From Haliotis rufescens (taxonomy: Eukaryota), in NCBI RefSeq assembly GCF_023055435.1, contig NW_025963824.1, positions 21,204,001-21,268,000 of the forward strand: a stretch of 64,000 nt of DNA. Direction: 5' to 3'. Below, in pieces: positions 1,293 to 59,688 of the stretch. The position numbers were made by a program, and so were the translations under genes. Below the pieces are notes generated by a model. That model made no database searches, had not been told where the DNA came from, and saw only the letters and a program-made list of their open reading frames with translations. Each line of letters opens with the position of its first letter. The stretch's first letter is position 1.

Positions 1293-1343
1293 GCCATCTG
1301 AGGAGGAGGTGTTTGAGCGGTGTGGTGGACGCACAGCCCATAA
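1293..1343 (+). CDS. GPATCH4: G patch domain-containing protein 4, penultimate coding exon (upstream exons lie outside the window)
   Basis: ttgcAG acceptor at 1291-1292 and GTAAGT donor at 1344. Encodes PSEEEVFERCGGRTAH(K), which splices in frame to GARHGLKLNGKL, the conserved GPATCH4 motif. Confidence 0.88.
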
Positions 1344-2825
1344 GTAAGTACATCACTCTGCTGGTGCAACATCAGGGACACACAGACCACAAGTAAGAAC
1401 ATCACTCTGCTGGTGCAACATCAGGGACACACAGCCCACAAGTAAGTACATCACTTGGCTGGTGCAACATCAGGGACACACAGCCCACAAGTAAGTACAT
1501 GACTTGGCTGGTGCAACATCAGGGACACACAGCCCACAAGTAAGAACATGACTTGGCTGGTGCAACATCAGGGACACACAGCCCACAAGTAAGTACATGA
1601 CTTGGCTGGTGCAACATCAGGGACACACAGCCCACAAGTAAGTACATCACTTGGCTGGTGCAACATCAGGGACACACAGCCCACAAGTAAGAACATGACT
1701 TGGCTGGTGCAACATCAGGGACACACAGCCCACAAGTAAGTTCATCACTTGGCTGGTGCAACATCAGGGACACACAGCCCACAAGTAAGAACATCACTCT
1801 GCTGGTGCAACATCAGGGACACACAGCCCACAAGTGAGTACATGACTTGGCTGGTGCAACATCAGGGACACACAGCCCACAAGTAAGAACATCACTCTGC
1901 TGGTGCAACATCAGGGACACACAGCCCACAAGTAAGAACATCACTCTGCTGGTGCAACATCAGGTCCACACAGACCACAATTAAGAACATCACTCTGCTG
2001 GTGCAACATCAGGGACACACAGCCCACAAGTAAGAACATCACTCTGCTGGTGCAACATCAGGGACACACAGCCCACAAGTAAGAACATCACTCTGCTGGT
2101 GCAACATCAGGGACACACAGCCCACAAGTAAGTACATGACTTGGCTGGTGCAACATCAGGGACACACAGCCCACAAGTAAGAACATCACTCTGCTTGTGC
2201 AACATCAGGGACACACAGCCCACAAGTAAGAACATCACTCTGCTGGTGCAACATCAGGGACACACAGCCCACAAGTAAGAACATCACTCTGCTGGTGCAA
2301 CATCATGGACACACAGCCCACAAGTAAGAACATCACTCTGCTGGTGCAACATCAGGGACACACAGCCCACAAGTGAGTACATGACTTGGCTGGTGCAACA
2401 TCAGGGACACACAGCCCACAAGTAAGAACATCACTCTGCTGGTGCAACATCAGGGACACACAGCCCACAAGTAAGTACATGACTTGGCTGGTGCAACATC
2501 AGGGACACACAGCCCACAAGTAAGTACATCACTTGGCTGGTGCAACATCAGGGACACACAGCCCACAAGTAAGTACATGACTTGGCTGGTGCAACATCAG
2601 GGACACACATCCCACAAGTGAGTACATGACTTGGCTGGTGCAACATCAGGGACACACATCCCACAAGTGAGTACATGACTTGGCTGGTGCAACATCAGGG
2701 ACACACAGCCCACAAGTGAGTACATGACTTGGCTGGTGCAACATCAGGGACACACAGCCCACAAGTAAGAACATGACTTGGCTTGTGCAACATCAGGGAC
2801 ACACAGCCCACAAGTAAGTACATCA
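1327..2825 (+). repeat. 49-bp minisatellite (~30 copies) whose unit spans the GPATCH4 exon/intron donor
   Basis: Unit ggacacacagcccacaa|gtaag(a/t)acatcactctgctggtgcaacatcag; period 49 (ggac at 1327 and 1376). Confidence 0.95.
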
Positions 2826-3344
2826 GTAAGAACCCTTTGTGCAGTACTATCTATCGATTTCATACAAAACTGAAGACAGCTGGTGTATTTCTGTTTACAT
2901 TAAACCTTTTGATCAAATACAAAACTCTGTCACATAACGAATGCAAGTCTGATGTTGCACCATAACCACTTCTTTGTCTATCTTCCTAACAACTAATAAT
3001 GATGAATAGAGGAATATGCCTGTTTATCTGTACATGAACAAATATCTGCTGGAAAGTATCTTTAAATCCAGGGGCAAGGGTGGCTCAGACATCTAAAGTG
3101 TTGCCACTCGCTGTGCACTGTTGCATCTTTAAGGCACGACAAAATCCCATGATCATTGGTTTGAATCCCTGATCTTCCCTGAAAAGGGTTCCTGGTTTGT
3201 CAGCACCATGCTAATGGGTTTCACCAAAGTGCTTCATATCTAAGACATGCATCACTGACATGCTGGTGTTATTTGACTGAAATGATGTTCAAAGCGACGT
3301 TAATCTCCAGTCAAGCAGTCATTAATCTCTTCATCATTACAAAG

Positions 3345-3565
3345 TTCCCCCAGGGAATTCCTGGGTTTTCCAGGTTAGAGTAGGTGACCAAGTGGATCAG
3401 GTGGTCAGACTCGGGTACTTGGTTGATAACATGTCATCGTACCCCCATGGGATGGATGAATGCTCTCAAAATCACTGAACTTTCAGATCCAGACTTGATT
3501 ATTTACAGGCTGATATCATCTAGCTGAAAAACTGCCGAACGTGGCATTAAAAAAGAAACAAACGT
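3345..3565 (+). mobile_element. Degenerate copy of the non-tRNA SINE-like family (same family as 51176-51424)
   Basis: Shares ggatcaggtggtcagactcg...tccagacttgattatttacag...agctgaaaaactgccga...ttaaa and an (aaac)n tail. Confidence 0.6.
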
Positions 3566-3613
3566 TACAAAGTTGGTGAAGGACCCATTTGAGCATGTAG
3601 GTGTGTGTTACAG

Positions 3614-4394
3614 AGGGGCTCGTCATGGGCTGAAGCTGAACGGGAAGCTGCAGCGGGTCCAGGCTATGGAGGAACAGCTGATGCTGCAGATGAAGGCTGC
3701 GCGACTACCTGAGGCAGCAGGCAACACAGGCCGCCTCCAGGGGCAAGACACAGCACCACAGGAGGGGAGGAAGAAGAACAAACATGTAGGTGAAGAGATT
3801 GAATTGTCATTGGAGGAGAACAGTCAAGGAACTGAGGGTGTTGAGAAGAAGAAGAAGAGGAAGAAGGAGAAGCATATAGAGGGAGAGGTTGAATCACCAT
3901 TGCAAGAGAACAGTAGTGCAGCTGAGAGTGTTGGGAAGAAGAAGAAGAGAAAGAAGGAGAAGCATATAGAGGGAGAGGTTGAATCACCATTGCAAGAGAA
4001 CAGTAGTGCAGCTGAGAGTGTTGGGAAGAAGAAGAAGAGAAAGAAGGAGAAGCATATAGAGGGAGAGGTTGAATCACCATTGCAAGAGAACAGTAGTGCA
4101 GCTGAGAGTGTTGGGAAGAAGAAGAAGAGAAAGAAGGAGAAGCATTTTGACGATGAGATTGAATTGCCATTGCAGGAGAACAGTGGACTGAGTGAGTGTG
4201 ATGAAAGGAAGAGGAGATATCCAGCAGGAGAGACTGGCCCGCCAGTCCACGAGGACAGCCAGAGTGATGGTGAGAGTCCATCCGAGGGGAGGAGGAAGAG
4301 AAAGAAGTGTAAGAAAGTGAAGGAGTTGGAAGGAGAAGAACAATCTTGTGAATCACACCACCCTAAGAAGAAAAAGAAAAAAAGAAAAGACTAA
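3614..4394 (+). CDS. GPATCH4: GPATCH4 last coding exon with Lys/Glu-rich low-complexity tail
   Basis: ttacAG acceptor at 3612-3613. Reads (K)GARHGLKLNGKLQRVQAMEEQL...KKKKKRKD* to TAA at 4394; the poly-lysine tail is typical of this nucleolar family. Confidence 0.88.
3780..4190 (+). repeat. Coding 90-bp (30-aa) tandem repeat inside the GPATCH4 last exon
   Basis: KHIEGEVESPLQENSSAAESVGKKKKRKKE occurs three times almost identically, with diverged flanking copies. Confidence 0.93.
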
Positions 4395-4443
4395 GTTGTG
4401 TCATCTTTGTATTGTACACAAGGAATGTATAAAGCTACAGGCA

Positions 4444-5984: not shown

Positions 5985-7902
5985 AAATACATCAGGCAGA
6001 GCACATCACATACACCAGACACATGGCACCACGTACACCAGACACATGGCACCACATACACCAGACACATGGCACCACATACACCAGACACATGGCACCA
6101 CGTACACCAGACACATGGCACCATGTACACCAGACACAGTACACCACATACACCAGACACGTTGCACCACGTACACCAGACACATGGCACCACATATACC
6201 AGACACAGTACATCACGTACACCAGACACGTGGCACCACGTACACCAGACACAGTACACCACATACACCAGACACATGGCACCACGTACACCAGACACAT
6301 GGCACCACGTACACCAGACACATGGCACCACATACACCAGACACATGGCACCACATACACCAGACACATGGCACCACGTACACCAGACACATGGCACCAT
6401 GTACACCAGACACAGTACACCACATACACCAGACACGTTGCACCACGTACACCAGACACATGGCACCACATATACCAGACACAGTACATCACGTACACCA
6501 GACACGTGGCACCACGTACACCAGACACAGTACACCACATACACCAGACACATGGCACCACGTACACCAGACACATGGCACCACGTACACCAGACACAGT
6601 ACACCACATAAACCAGACACATGGCACCACATACACCAGACACAGTACACCACGTACACCAACACATGGCACCACGTACACCACGTACACCAGACACCAT
6701 GTACACCAGACACATGGCACCACGTACACCAGACACGTGGCACCACGTACACCAGACATAGTACACCACGTACACCAGACACAGTACACCACGTACACTT
6801 GACACGTGGCATCACGTACACCAGACACTTTGCACCACATACACCAGACACAGTACACTAAGTACACCAGACACAGTTACACCACGCACGACCGCCTCCG
6901 TGGTCTAATGGTAGAGCGTCTGCCCGGAGAGCGGAAGGTCCAGGGTTCGATCCCCAGCCGCGTAGTACCAAAAGACACTTAAAGATGGTACTTGTTGTTA
7001 CCCTGTCTGGTGCTCGGCACTAAGGGGCTCAAACAAGGACTGGTCGGCTCGGAGTCAGTATACTGTGTCTGAGTGGGGTATTCATGTTAAACTGCGGCAT
7101 GGTATCTCAGTGTGCTAGCATCAGTCTGAACTAGTACAAGCAGCCACACACACACACATACGCGTGCATGCACATCGCTATATAAGTGCAATAATCTTGG
7201 ACGCGATGTTAAACCCCATTTCACCTCACCTACACCACGTACACCAGACACAATACACCATGTACACCAGACACAGTACACCATGTACACCAGAAACAGT
7301 ACACCACGTACACCAGACAAAGTACACCACGTACACCACGTACACCAGACACAGTACACTACGTACACCAGACACAGTACACCACGTACACCAGACACGT
7401 GACACCACGTACACCAGACACATGGCACCACACACACCAGACACAGTACACCACGTACACCAGACACGTGGCACTATGTACACCAGATACAGTACACAGT
7501 ACACCATGTACACCAGACATGTGGCACCACGTACACCAGACGCAGTACACCACGTACACCAGACACGTGACACCACGTACACCAGACACAGTACACCACA
7601 TACACCAGACAATATACACCATGTACACCAGACACATGGCACCATGTACACCAGACACAGTACACCACGTACACCAGACACAGTACACCACGTACACCAG
7701 ACACGTGGCACAATGAACACCAGACACAGTACACCACATACACCAGACACAGTACACCAGACACGTAGCACCACGTACACCAGACACAGTACACCACGTA
7801 CACCAGACACGTGACACCACGTAGACCAGACACAGTACGCCACGTGCACCAGACATGTGGCACCACGTAGACCAGACACAGTACACCACATACACCAGAC
7901 AG
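5985..7902 (+). repeat. 23-bp satellite, left part (interrupted by a SINE and a LINE)
   Basis: Unit caccacgtacaccagacac(atgg/agta); internal 276-bp (12-mer) duplication (gttgcaccac at 6161 and 6437). Confidence 0.95.
6887..7230 (+). mobile_element. tRNA-derived SINE (central domain resembles the Meta domain), full length
   Basis: A-box-like tggtctaatgg, B box ggttcgatccc, central taccaaaagac...gatggtacttgttg...gctcggcactaagggg, (cacct)n tail; apparent TSD tacaccacg. Two more copies occur in the window. Confidence 0.88.
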
Positions 7903-8535
7903 TATCCCCGTGGGGACCGGGGGAAGATAAACAAGAATGGGTCCTCAGCCCCCCAATGCTGGTCGTAAAAGGAGACCGAATTGGGCAGCCTATTTGCCGT
8001 GGGCTGCGACCCTGTGTCGGCAGAGGAAGGGATTCTGGTGGTTGAGGGCGACGGAGCCGGAGCCGGCAATAGTGCTCCTTAGTCCAACACACCACTTCGA
8101 CCCTAACTTTGCCTAGACGGGCGGTAGAATGGGCCCGATTCTATCAATCGGCTGGTCATGTCATGCCCTGTGCATAAGATATTTCACGCACACTTTTGAT
8201 GTTAAAAAAAATAAATTTTTAACCTAAATGTATATCATATCTAACAATCTATAAAACTTGCTTAGAGCCCTATGCCCAGAAGGCGGTGATTCATGGGCCA
8301 ATCTGGTGATGCTGACCTCCGAATTCTGTACATCTCAAATTGATTGTCATGGGCCGAACCAGCCTGACCTTTAATTTGGTAGAATGCTATAGCTCTTCGT
8401 GTCAAATTTGCTGGAGTATATCACCGCTTTATCCCCAGTCTTTGCAGCTTGGAAATCCGCTGCAGCATAAGACTGTCCTTGTAGACACTCCATGGTGGGT
8501 GGGGAAAAGGGGTGCCGAATCATTTTCCTTTCGAC

Positions 8536-13810: not shown

Positions 13811-14704
13811 CACCAGACAGGACACCAGACACAGTACACCACGTACACCAGACACGTGGCACCACGTACACCAGACACATGGCACCACGTACACCAGACA
13901 CAGTACACCAGACACAGTACACAACATACACCAGACATGTGGCACCACGTACACCAGACACAGTACACCACGTACACCAAATACAGTACACCACGTACAC
14001 AAGACAAAGTACACCACGTACACCAGACACGTGGCACCACGTACATTAGACACAGTACACCACGTACACCAGACACGTGGCACCACGTACACCAGACACA
14101 GTACACCACATACACCAGACAAAGTACACCATTTAGACCAGACACGTGCACCAGACATGTGGCACCACGTACACCAGACACAGTACACCACATACATCAG
14201 ACAGTACACCAGACACAGTACACCACATACACCAGACAAAGTACACCCAATACACCAGACACTTGGCACCACGTACACCAGACAGATGGCACCACGTACA
14301 CCAGACACAGTACACCACGTACACCAGACTCGTGGCACCATGTACACCAGACACAGTACACCACATACACCAGACACATCGCACCACGTACACCCGACAC
14401 ATTGCACCACGTAAACCAGACACAGTACACCACGTACACCAGATACGTGGCACAACGTACACCAGACACATGGCACCACATACACCAGACACATGGCACC
14501 ATGTACACCAGACACAGTACACCACATACACCAGACACATGGCACCACATACACCAGACACATGGCACCACGTACACCAGACACAGTACACCACATACTC
14601 CAGACACATGGCACCACGTACACTAGACACAGTACACCACGTACACCAAACACAGTACACCACGTACACCAGACACATTGCACAACGTACACCTGACACA
14701 GTAC
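13811..14704 (+). repeat. 23-bp satellite, right part (continuation after the LINE)
   Basis: Same unit as 5985-7902. Confidence 0.95.
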
Positions 14705-14759
14705 CCCAGTTTAATGTATTAAAAGGCAGATGACATAATTGTTTTTTTTCAAATGTTAA

Positions 14760-22744: not shown

Positions 22745-25420
22745 TATGCCCTGTGTCTAGTGTATGTGGAGTGTCTGGTATATGTGCTGTGTCTGATGTA
22801 TGTGGTGTGCTATGTCTGATGTATGTGCTGTACTGTGTCTGATGAATGTGGTGTGCTGTGTCTAGTGTATGTGGTGTACTGTGTCTGATGAATGTGGTGT
22901 GCTGTGTCTAGTGTATGTGGTGTACTGTGTCTGATGTATGTGGTGTGCTGTGTCTGGTGAATGTGGTGTGCTATGTCTGATGTATGTGGTGTGCTGTGTC
23001 TGATGAATGTGGTGTGCTGTGTCTGATGTATGTGGTGTGCTGTGTCAGATGTATGTGGTGTGCTATGTCTGGTGTATGTGGTGTGCTGTGCCTGGTGTAT
23101 GTGGTGTGCTGTGTCTGATGTATGCGGTGTGCTGTGTCTGATGTATGTGGTGTGCTGTGTCTGATGTATGTGGTGTGCTATGTCTGATGTATGTGGTGTG
23201 CTATGTCTGATGTATGTGGTGTGCTGTGTCTGATGTATGCGGTGTGCTGTGTCTGGTGAACATGGTGTGCTGTGTCTGATGTATGTGGTATGCTGTGTCT
23301 AGTGTATGAGGTGTGCTGTGTCTGATGTATGAAGTGTGCTGTGTCTGATGTATGTGGTGTTCTGTGTCTGGTGAATGTGGTGTGCTGTGTCTGATGTATG
23401 TGGTATGCTGTGTCTAGTGTATGAGGTGTGCTGTGTCTGATGTATGTGGTGTGCTATGTCTGATGTATGTGTTGTGCTGTGTCTGATGTAGGTGGTGTGC
23501 TGTGTCAGATGTATGTGGTGTGCTGTGTCTGATGTATGTGGTGTTCTGTGTCTGGTATATATGGTGTGCTGTGTCTGATGTATGTGGTGTGCTGTGTCTG
23601 ATGTATGCGGTGTGCTGTGTTTGGTGTATGTGCTGTACTGTGTCTGATGAATGTGGTGTGCTGTGTTTGGTGTATGTGCTGTACTGTGTCTGATGAATGT
23701 GGTGTGCTGTGTCTGATGTATGTGGTGTACTGTGTCTGATGAATGTGGTGTGCTGTGTCTAGTGTATGTGGTGTACTGTGTCTGATGTATGTGGTATGCT
23801 GTGTCTAGTGTATGAGGTGTGCTGTGTCTGATGTATGTAGTGTGCTGTGCCTGGTGTATGTGGTGTGCAATGGCTGATGTATGCGGTGTGCTGTGTCTGA
23901 TGTATGCGATGTGCTGTGTCTGATGTATGTGGTGTGCTGTGTCTGATGTATGCGGTGTGCTGTGTCTGGTGAACGTGGTGTGCTGTGTCTGATGTATGTG
24001 GTATGCTGTGTCTAGTGTATGAGGTGTGCTGTGTCTGATGTATGAAGTGTGCTGTGTCTGATGTATGTGGTGTTCTGTGTCTAGTGTATGAGGTGTGCTG
24101 TGTCTGATGTATGTGGTGTGCTATGTCTGATGTATGTGGTGTGCTGTGTATGATGTATGTGGTGTGCTGTGTCAGATGTATGTTGTGTGCTGTGTCTGAT
24201 GTATGTGGTGTGTTGTGTCTGATGTATGCGGTGTGCTGTGTCTGGTGAACGTGGTGTGCTGTGTCTGATGTATGTGGTGTGCTGTGTCTGATGTATGCGG
24301 TGTGCTGTGTCTGGTGAACGTGGTGTGCAGTGTCTGATGTATGTGGTATGCTGTGTCTAGTGTATGAGGTGCGCTGTGTCTGATGTATGAAGTGTGCTGT
24401 GTCTGATGTATGTGGTGTTCTGTGTCTAGTGTATGAGGTGTGCTGTGTCTGATGTATGTGGTGTGCAATGGCTGATGTATGCGGTGTGCTGTGTCTGATG
24501 TAGGCGATGTGCTGTGTCTGATGTATGTGGTGTGCTATGTCTGATGTATGTGGTGTGCTGTGTCTGATGTATGCGGTGTGCTGTGTCTGGTGAACGTGGT
24601 GTGCTGTGTCTGATGTATGTGGTATGCTGTGTCTAGTGTATGAGGTGTGCTGTGTCTGATGTATGAAGTGTGCTGTGTCTGATGTATGTGGTGTTCTGTG
24701 TCTAGTGTATGAGGTGTGCTGTGTCTGATGTATGTGGTGTGCTATGTCTGATGTATGTGGTGTGCTGTGTCTGATGTATGTGGTGTGCTGTGTCTGATGT
24801 ATGTGGTGTGCTGTGTCTAGTGTATGAGGTGTGCTGTGTCTGATGTATGGGGGTGTGCTATGTCTGATGTATGTGGTGTGCTGTGTCTGATGTATGTGGT
24901 GTTCTGTGTCAGATGTATGTTGTGTGCTGTGTCTGATGTATGTGGTGTTCTGTGTCTGATATATATGGTGTGCTGTGTCTGATGTATGTGGTGTGCTGTG
25001 TCTGATGTATGCGGTGTGCTGTGTTTGGTGTATGTGCTGTACTGTGTCTGATGAATGTGGTGTGCTGTGTTTGGTGTATGTGCTGTACTGTGTCTGATGA
25101 ATGTGGTGTGCTGTGTCTGATGTATGCGGTGTGCTGTGTTTGGTGTATGTGCTGTACTGTGTCTGATGTATGCGGTGTGCTGTGTTCGGTTTATGTGCTG
25201 TACTGTGTCTGATGAATGTGGTGTGCTGTGTCTGATGTATGCGGTGTGCTGTGTCTGATGTATGCGGTGTGCTTAGTCAGATGTATGCGGTGGGCTGTGT
25301 CTGGTGTATGCGGTGTGCTGTGTCTGATATATGCGGTGTGCTGTGTACACCAGACACAACGCACCTGATACACCAGACACAGGGCACACCACATACATCA
25401 GACATAACACCACATATCAC
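22745..25420 (-). repeat. 23-bp satellite related to 5985-14704 but inverted; orientation flips back at ~25345
   Basis: Unit tgtgtctgatgtatgtggtgtgc is the reverse complement of gcacaccacatacatcagacaca. Confidence 0.93.
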
Positions 25421-59077: not shown

Positions 59078-59599
59078 ATAGCACAACACAGAAAAGGTCA
59101 CACAGTTGTAGTACTATTGTTGTGTTGTAGGCATCAAATACAACACAGAAAAGATCACACAGTTGTATTACTATTGTTGTTTTGTAGGCATCAAGTACAA
59201 CACAGAAAAGATCACACAGTTGTATTACTATTGTTGTGTTGTAGGCATCAAGCACAACACAGAAAAGGTCACACAGTTGTAGTACTATTGTTGTGTTGTA
59301 GGCATCAGGTACAACACAGAAAAGGTCACACAGTTGTAGTACTATTGTTGTATTGTAGGCATCAAGTACAACACAGAAAAGGTCACACAGTTGTAGTACT
59401 ATTGTTGTGTTGTAGGCATCAAGTACAACACAGAAAAGGTCACACAGTTGTAGTACTATTGTTGTGTTGTAGGCATCAAGTACAACACAGAAAAGGTCAC
59501 ACAGTTGTAGTACTATTGTTGTGTTGTAGGCATCAGGTACAACACAGAAAAGGTCACACAGTTGTAGTACTATTGTTGTGTTGTAGGCATCAAGTACAA
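59078..59599 (+). repeat. 57-bp minisatellite (9 copies) whose unit spans the VPS13 intron 4/exon 5 acceptor
   Basis: cacagaaaaggtcacacagttgtagtactattgttgtgttgtAG|gcatcaagtacaa; the last unit runs into exon 5. Confidence 0.95.
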
Positions 59600-59688
59600 T
59601 GCGGAGAAAGAGGAGAAGGCGAAGCAGGAGGCGAAGCAAAAGAAGTTGAAGCAGATTGAGGAGAGGAAGAAGGCTGAGGCTGACAAGG
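59587..59688 (+). CDS. VPS13: VPS13 coding exon 5
   Basis: ttgtAG / GTGAGT; (G)IKYNAEKEEKAKQEAKQKKLKQIEERKKAEADK. Confidence 0.92.

What the first reader, a model, noticed from the sequence alone, without database searches (positions are those of the whole stretch)
1327..2825. About 30 tandem copies of a real 5' splice site: minisatellite built from the GPATCH4 exon-intron junction
Seen: the 49-bp unit is the last 17 nt of the exon plus the first 32 nt of the intron. Nearly every copy carries a consensus donor (GTAAGT, GTAAGA or GTGAGT), and each 17-nt exon copy is preceded by CAG, giving an array of AG|GGACACACAGCCCACAA|GT pseudo-micro-exons. Reading past the true donor hits a stop at once (cat aag taa). 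Inference: the spliceosome must pick the first of ~30 competing donors, so the array could act as a U1 sink, a recursive-splicing substrate or a copy-number-tunable NMD switch, or it may simply be tolerated.
Basis: partly seen in the sequence, partly recalled or inferred. Interest (0 to 1): 0.7.

Follow-up and report, generated by a model that had tools for sequence, protein, structure and literature searches.

The report
Repeated splice donor in abalone GPATCH4
The end of one exon of an abalone GPATCH4 gene, with its splice signal, has been copied 30 times into the next intron; the assembled transcripts use only the first signal, so it is likely a harmless repeat of a kind already known from human and lancelet genes, and such repeats are common in this genome.

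Summary
Observation confirmed: 31 units of 49 bp (17 nt exon end + 32 nt intron start) at 1327-2825; 30 of 31 keep GT; the one 17-nt motif searched occurs only here in the genome. The gene is abalone GPATCH4. Transcript contigs from three studies join the first donor (1343) straight to 3614, unbroken, although 29 of 30 copies score as well or better as donors. No later donor or 17-nt micro-exon was seen, but contigs drop rare forms and most such forms would be NMD candidates. The pseudo-acceptors are weak, and the CAG before each copy looks like chance (0 of 9 other donor arrays have AG there). This is a known kind: human F7/CBS/6-16 junction minisatellites and amphioxus 'mirages'. The scan has noted it before on other DNA, including this genome. 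Added here: 4 of 12 junctions of this gene are amplified (one intron is almost wholly junction copies), and 14 of 530 junctions in 12 dynein genes are too, a mild excess over chance at most. Best reading: tolerated slippage expansion; regulatory roles are unsupported, not excluded.

The parts
1293..1343 (+). Penultimate coding exon (51 nt) of GPATCH4; strong acceptor, authentic donor at 1343/1344
   Evidence: Transcript contigs X1, X5, X9 lay from 1293, with the previous exon before and the 3614 exon behind; acceptor in the 98th percentile of real acceptors
1327..2825 (+). 49-bp minisatellite, 30.6 units; unit = last 17 nt of the exon + first 32 nt of the intron; the first unit holds the real donor
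   Evidence: the 17-nt motif searched is found only at this locus
1345..1347 (+). In-frame stop (TAA) just behind the true donor; any later donor would keep it
1344..3613 (+). Last intron (2270 nt), about two thirds of it array
   Evidence: GT..CAG ends; skipped in contigs
3614..4396 (+). Last coding exon of GPATCH4 (Lys/Glu-rich tail, with a 90-bp coding repeat at 3832-4184)
   Evidence: contigs of 4 of 4 runs lay from 3614; matches the RefSeq model

Best explanation
This is a minisatellite whose 49-bp unit spans the exon-intron junction of abalone GPATCH4; the assembled transcripts splice from the first donor only, and the 30 extra donors are likely tolerated passengers of a local tandem duplication that then expanded. 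Shown: unit anatomy, locus-specific origin, use of 1343-3614 as the main junction, presence of the unit in related organisms, many similar arrays in this genome. Inferred: birth by slippage or repair duplication; spread from an inner copy (all inner copies share a G-to-A change that the exon lacks); choice of the first donor by exon definition from the strong 1293 acceptor plus 5'-first selection as shown for human F7; any leak to later donors would mostly be removed by NMD.
For: 3 of 3 transcript sets laid on the exon (X1, X5, X9; studies P1, P2, P3) carry one contig running previous exon > 1293-1343 > 3614, depth 27.7, 20.1, 45.8. In X5 one 837-nt record covers 1293-1343 and 3614-3760 in adjacent record positions, and it carries the window's allele, whose donor scores lower (5.0) than 29 of 30 copies (median 8.0). 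7 of 7 RefSeq models from 4 Haliotis species have the plain junction peptide. Junction arrays are common: 14 of 530 junctions in 265 dynein introns; 10 of 64 arrays with 10 or more exon bases against 8.0 expected when each array stays in its own intron (P 0.29). Copies keep intact donors in nearly all arrays (GT mismatches 14 of 480), so there is no sign of selection against them. Precedent: F7 minigenes use only the most upstream site even when pseudo-sites are made stronger (PMC1557585); amphioxus mirages do not disturb splicing (PMC3087553).
Against: Contigs drop rare variants and the runs are steady-state RNA, so minor or NMD-destroyed isoforms are not excluded (tool notes). In human 6-16 and CBS two pseudo-sites are used (PMC1557585 introduction). 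Arrays sit near junctions more than a uniform model predicts: 10 of 64 against 4.3 (P 0.013); 23 of 64 span or end within 20 nt of a junction against 8.2 pooled and 15.0 own-intron (P 0.009; window chosen after seeing the data). GPATCH4 itself has 3 junction arrays among its 5 other arrays (P 0.03-0.07). One RefSeq model (H. cracherodii X2) skips the upstream exon that in this genome is followed by a 113-copy donor array. The array is shared by several coded organisms, which fits either persistence by drift or retention.
Confidence: 0.78

Rival explanations
1. Hidden leak or NMD rheostat: later donors are used at a real rate, keep the stop at 1345-1347, and are destroyed, so copy number tunes GPATCH4 output.
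For: 29 of 30 copies score at least as well as the true donor; exons of 100-250 nt from donors 2-5 would be of ordinary size (arithmetic); donors 3-31 put the stop 94-1466 nt before the last junction (the 50-55 nt rule is recalled); pseudo-site use is reported for 6-16 and CBS.
Against: All such isoforms must contain exon-into-intron sequence, yet the exon contigs of X1, X5 and X9 pass 1343 unbroken to 3614, while branches at about a tenth of the depth survived at the 3614 acceptor in X1 and X9 (an inference from contig continuity, not a read count). F7 work argues that position, not reading frame, decides.
Confidence: 0.1
2. Micro-exon ladder or recursive splicing: CAG before each 17-nt exon copy serves as acceptor, so copies are included or the intron is removed stepwise.
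For: CAG precedes 29 of 30 copies; the gene's other donor array also has CAG before 109 copies; three micro-exons would restore the frame.
Against: Pseudo-acceptors score 3.5-4.0, 6th-8th percentile of real and about 82nd-85th of random intronic AG; 0 of 9 other donor arrays have AG there, and 2 of 11 is within chance (P 0.15); a major variant in DNA run X19 has AAG; no such joint or loose end listed; no insertion in 7 RefSeq models.
Confidence: 0.04
3. The array is harmless, but its birth was not random: duplications in this genome arise preferentially at splice junctions (a transcription- or splicing-linked break or slippage bias).
For: Excess over the pooled null; 23 of 64 against 15.0 under the own-intron null; 4 of 12 junctions in this gene.
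Against: Strictly spanning arrays are not in excess under the own-intron null (P 0.21-0.29 at four settings); one gene family, 64 arrays, junctions fitted from distant homologues; composition or selection near junctions was not modelled.
Confidence: 0.2
4. Assembly artefact.
For: No long read spanning the array was examined.
Against: 14 distinct unit sequences in mixed order; unit variants at high depth in an independent DNA run and unit contigs in three transcript sets.
Confidence: 0.01

Closest known systems
Human F7 intron 7 37-bp VNTR (Borensztajn et al. 2006, PMC1557585; abstract, passages of introduction and results, whole discussion read)
   Same: First unit spans the exon-intron boundary; identical downstream donors; only the most upstream one is used.
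   Different: 5-9 units with 4 exon bases there; 31 units with 17 exon bases here; tested with minigenes there, only contigs here.
Human 6-16 (IFI6) intron 2, CBS intron 13, LMNB2, PDGF intron 4 minisatellites (as described in the introduction of PMC1557585; original papers not seen)
   Same: 10-25 reiterated donors, similar scale.
   Different: 6-16 and CBS use two pseudo-sites; none was seen here.
Amphioxus 'mirage' minisatellites: Adh3, globins BflGb6/9, troponin C, PGBD5 (PMC3087553 and PMC3902484; passages read)
   Same: Invertebrate; both donor and acceptor boundaries duplicated; several per genome; normal splicing kept; boundary unit left out of homogenisation.
   Different: Mollusc; larger copy numbers (31 and 113); a frequency estimate is given here (14 of 530 junctions). 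Length polymorphism and somatic instability were not tested here.

Membership tests
Junction-spanning minisatellite ('mirage'; F7-type) | Tandem unit of 10-160 bp that spans an authentic exon-intron boundary | tested here: met
Junction-spanning minisatellite ('mirage'; F7-type) | Copies keep splice signals | tested here: met
   29 of 30 copies keep GT; scores equal real donors
Junction-spanning minisatellite ('mirage'; F7-type) | Main mRNA uses the authentic (exon-proximal) site | tested here: met
   3 of 3 transcript sets laid on the exon; minor forms not measurable
Junction-spanning minisatellite ('mirage'; F7-type) | Concerted evolution of inner copies, boundary unit apart | tested here: met
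   29 of 29 other full units share two differences from the authentic unit
Junction-spanning minisatellite ('mirage'; F7-type) | Length polymorphism among alleles or cells | not testable with these tools
   Only contigs, which collapse the array to about one unit
Micro-exon or recursive-splice array | Functional acceptor (pyrimidine tract, YAG) before each copy | tested here: not met
   6th-8th percentile of real acceptors
Micro-exon or recursive-splice array | Junction or lariat reads into the array | tested here: inconclusive
   None listed, but only contigs were laid and the array itself was not
Regulated unproductive splicing (AS-NMD switch) | Stop-bearing isoform that rises on NMD block | not testable with these tools
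   Geometry allows it; no NMD-blocked data
GPATCH4 | N-terminal G-patch and match to named GPATCH4-like proteins | tested here: met
   PF01585 E 2.5e-11 on P0126; 100% identity over the 45 residues searched to the RefSeq H. rufescens model

The most novel reading that the evidence does not exclude
In abalone, minisatellites are born preferentially at splice junctions, so thousands of introns (about 1 junction in 40 by this sample) carry ladders of intact donors or acceptors, and some introns, like the 4.3-kb one upstream in GPATCH4, are built almost wholly of junction copies. That would be a junction-biased route of intron growth and a genome-wide natural test of 'first donor, last acceptor' selection, with copy number affecting leak or exon skipping in some genes.
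Probability: 0.2. Interest if true: 0.55.

Novelty: new member of a known kind. Interest (0 to 1): 0.22.

Why it matters
As a single locus it adds one more example to a described class. Its use is as test material: a weak first donor wins over 29 equal or stronger ones in a mollusc, which extends position-based 5' splice site choice beyond mammals and lancelets if raw reads confirm it. The gene-level and survey results suggest abalone offers many such natural ladders, on both donor and acceptor sides, for testing splice-site selection and intron growth.

Tried and rejected
Pfam scan of the last exon alone: nothing informative. Kinase family search meant to supply exons gave mostly single-exon genes among its loci; its 30 loci were not analysed. 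In X19 the unique exon flank had no cover, so no copy number could be derived. In one search the loose end before 3614 was among rows not shown. A recalled DOI for the 6-16 minisatellite paper is not held. PMC10078293 (passages read) gave nothing on junction-spanning units. Searches for a report of such arrays in abalone or a genome-wide count found none (listings only); this library lacks most subscription journals, and supplements were not read. (intron gain by duplication) was seen as a listing only. Rejected: dispersed mobile family; coding repeat (stops in all six frames); selection to disable the copies (copies are not independent and were found by a junction probe, so no valid test); gene conversion as the cause of the C allele at 1341 in X1 and X9 (an ancestral C explains it as simply). 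U1 sink: not testable; 30 sites on one nascent RNA are small against the nuclear U1 pool (own knowledge). Survey limits: 265 junction pairs fitted out of 358 exon clusters; one donor (C583) was first placed one unit too far and corrected by eye; arrays with period under 15 or under 3 copies (53 of 117) were left out of the enrichment counts; several thresholds were tried.

Full report
Observation. The array is real as described: 1327-2825, period 49, 30.6 copies, 94% matches, no indels. It has 31 unit starts; 30 carry a GT donor and 29 of the 30 exon copies follow CAG. The codon after the true donor is a stop. All six frames of the array are closed. A 17-nt motif of the unit has 26 matches in the genome, all here, so the unit was likely born at this locus.

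Gene. The first 45 residues of the last exon are identical to a RefSeq 'G patch domain-containing protein 4-like' of Haliotis rufescens, with relatives in H. cracherodii, H. rubra and H. asinina; the full model carries a G-patch. Upstream DNA gives seven coding exons and six introns, in agreement with the RefSeq protein.

Splicing. Contigs of four runs guessed to be RNA lay from exactly 3614. In three runs of three studies and three coded organisms one contig runs from the previous exon through 1293-1343 into 3614. In X5 a single 837-nt record covers both exons in adjacent positions. No joint or loose end for a later donor or a micro-exon was listed. Every later-donor isoform must hold exon-into-intron sequence, which would branch these contigs; unspliced branches at about a tenth of the depth did survive at the 3614 acceptor in X1 and X9. 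I infer that other forms are minor in steady-state RNA. This is not a read count, and contigs drop rare variants. All 7 RefSeq models have the plain junction.

Signal strength. With matrices from 214 abalone introns, the window's true donor scores 5.0 (7th percentile, mostly from T at -3, in a small training set) and the copies 7.3-8.8; the acceptor of the 51-nt exon is in the 98th percentile; the pseudo-acceptors are in the 6th-8th. X5 carries the window's allele and still uses the first donor. So position, not strength, appears to decide. Later donors would leave the stop 45 nt (donor 2) or 94-1466 nt (donors 3-31) before the last junction; one or two micro-exons would shift the frame and truncate the protein.

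History. All 29 other full units share G-to-A at unit position 5 and C at position 15. The first change would alter an Arg kept in all models, so the array likely grew from an inner copy while the exon stayed under selection. X1 and X9 have C at 1341 in the exon, as the copies do, most simply the ancestral state. The unit is present in a DNA run of another coded organism with its own variants, so the array likely predates the split of these organisms.

Context. The same gene has three more junction arrays upstream of the window: a 34-bp donor array of 113 copies, a 30-bp acceptor array abutting it (the two fill a 4268-nt intron almost wholly), and a 40-bp acceptor array of 18 copies: 4 of 12 junctions. 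A 57-bp acceptor array lies at 59083-59599 before a likely VPS13-type exon (weak Pfam hits). To ask if this is special I fetched 12 dynein heavy chain loci, fitted 265 introns with homologous proteins and found 14 of 530 junctions spanned (9 donor, 5 acceptor). With period 15 or more, 3 or more copies and 10 or more exon bases, 10 of 64 arrays span a junction against 4.3 (uniform null, P 0.013) or 8.0 (own-intron null, P 0.29). Spanning or ending within 20 nt: 23 of 64 against 8.2 or 15.0 (P 0.009; post hoc). So such arrays are common here, with a mild and unsettled excess. AG precedes the exon copy in 0 of the 9 dynein donor arrays; the micro-exon look in GPATCH4 (2 of 11 overall) is within chance.

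Known kinds. Human F7 intron 7 has the same design, and minigenes show that only the most upstream donor is used even when pseudo-sites are strengthened, short of a perfect consensus; 6-16, CBS, LMNB2 and PDGF are cited as further cases, the first two with two pseudo-sites in use (PMC1557585). Amphioxus 'mirages' duplicate either boundary without disturbing splicing (PMC3087553; PMC3902484); the lead to that name came from an earlier scan note and was checked in those papers. The scan has 16 earlier notes matching these words in at least 10 genomes and one on another abalone gene in this genome; these are unchecked notes, not support. No paper on such arrays in abalone turned up.

Verdict. A new member of a known kind, most likely a tolerated expansion (0.78). 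Hidden NMD-coupled leak 0.10; micro-exon or recursive use 0.04. Junction-biased birth of minisatellites in this genome is compatible with the neutral reading and stands at about 0.2. Interest 0.22.

Noticed in passing
L009:1008-4880 and L009:4882-5305 (just upstream of the window): One GPATCH4 intron (4268 nt) consists almost wholly of a 34-bp donor array (113 copies, all keeping GT) abutting a 30-bp acceptor array; some upstream acceptor copies score above the real one. A H. cracherodii RefSeq model skips the exon before this intron.
   Followed up: partly
L009:5791-6503: 40-bp acceptor array (18 copies) ending in the first 15 nt of the next GPATCH4 exon; 12 upstream copies score like the real acceptor.
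   Followed up: partly
window 59083-59599: 57-bp x 9 acceptor-junction array before an exon at 59587-59688 of a likely VPS13-type gene (weak Pfam hits in order, below cut-off).
   Followed up: partly
L048-L167 (12 dynein heavy chain loci): 14 junction-spanning arrays; in one (31-bp, C68) 11 of 28 copies have lost GT, the first of them to GC; in two the unit holds 54-65 nt of exon.
   Followed up: partly
window 3832-4184: 90-bp in-frame coding repeat (3.9 copies) in the last exon; the H. cracherodii model is about two units shorter.
   Followed up: partly
window about 3067-3256 and 3382-3563: Inverted pair of a dispersed repeat (MITE-like) in the same intron, with many 71-79% matches elsewhere.
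   Followed up: no
window about 1100-1210 and L009 about 7990-8100: Seen by eye: long inverted ends about 3 kb apart, like a DNA transposon remnant in the intron before exon 1293.
   Followed up: no
window 6007-7901, 13822-14708, 22783-25410: One 23-bp minisatellite family at three places, the last mostly in the opposite orientation; a tRNA-like stretch sits at about 6890-6970 between two blocks.
   Followed up: no
window 1341: Synonymous T/C difference in the exon among runs; C is the state of all repeat copies.
   Followed up: partly
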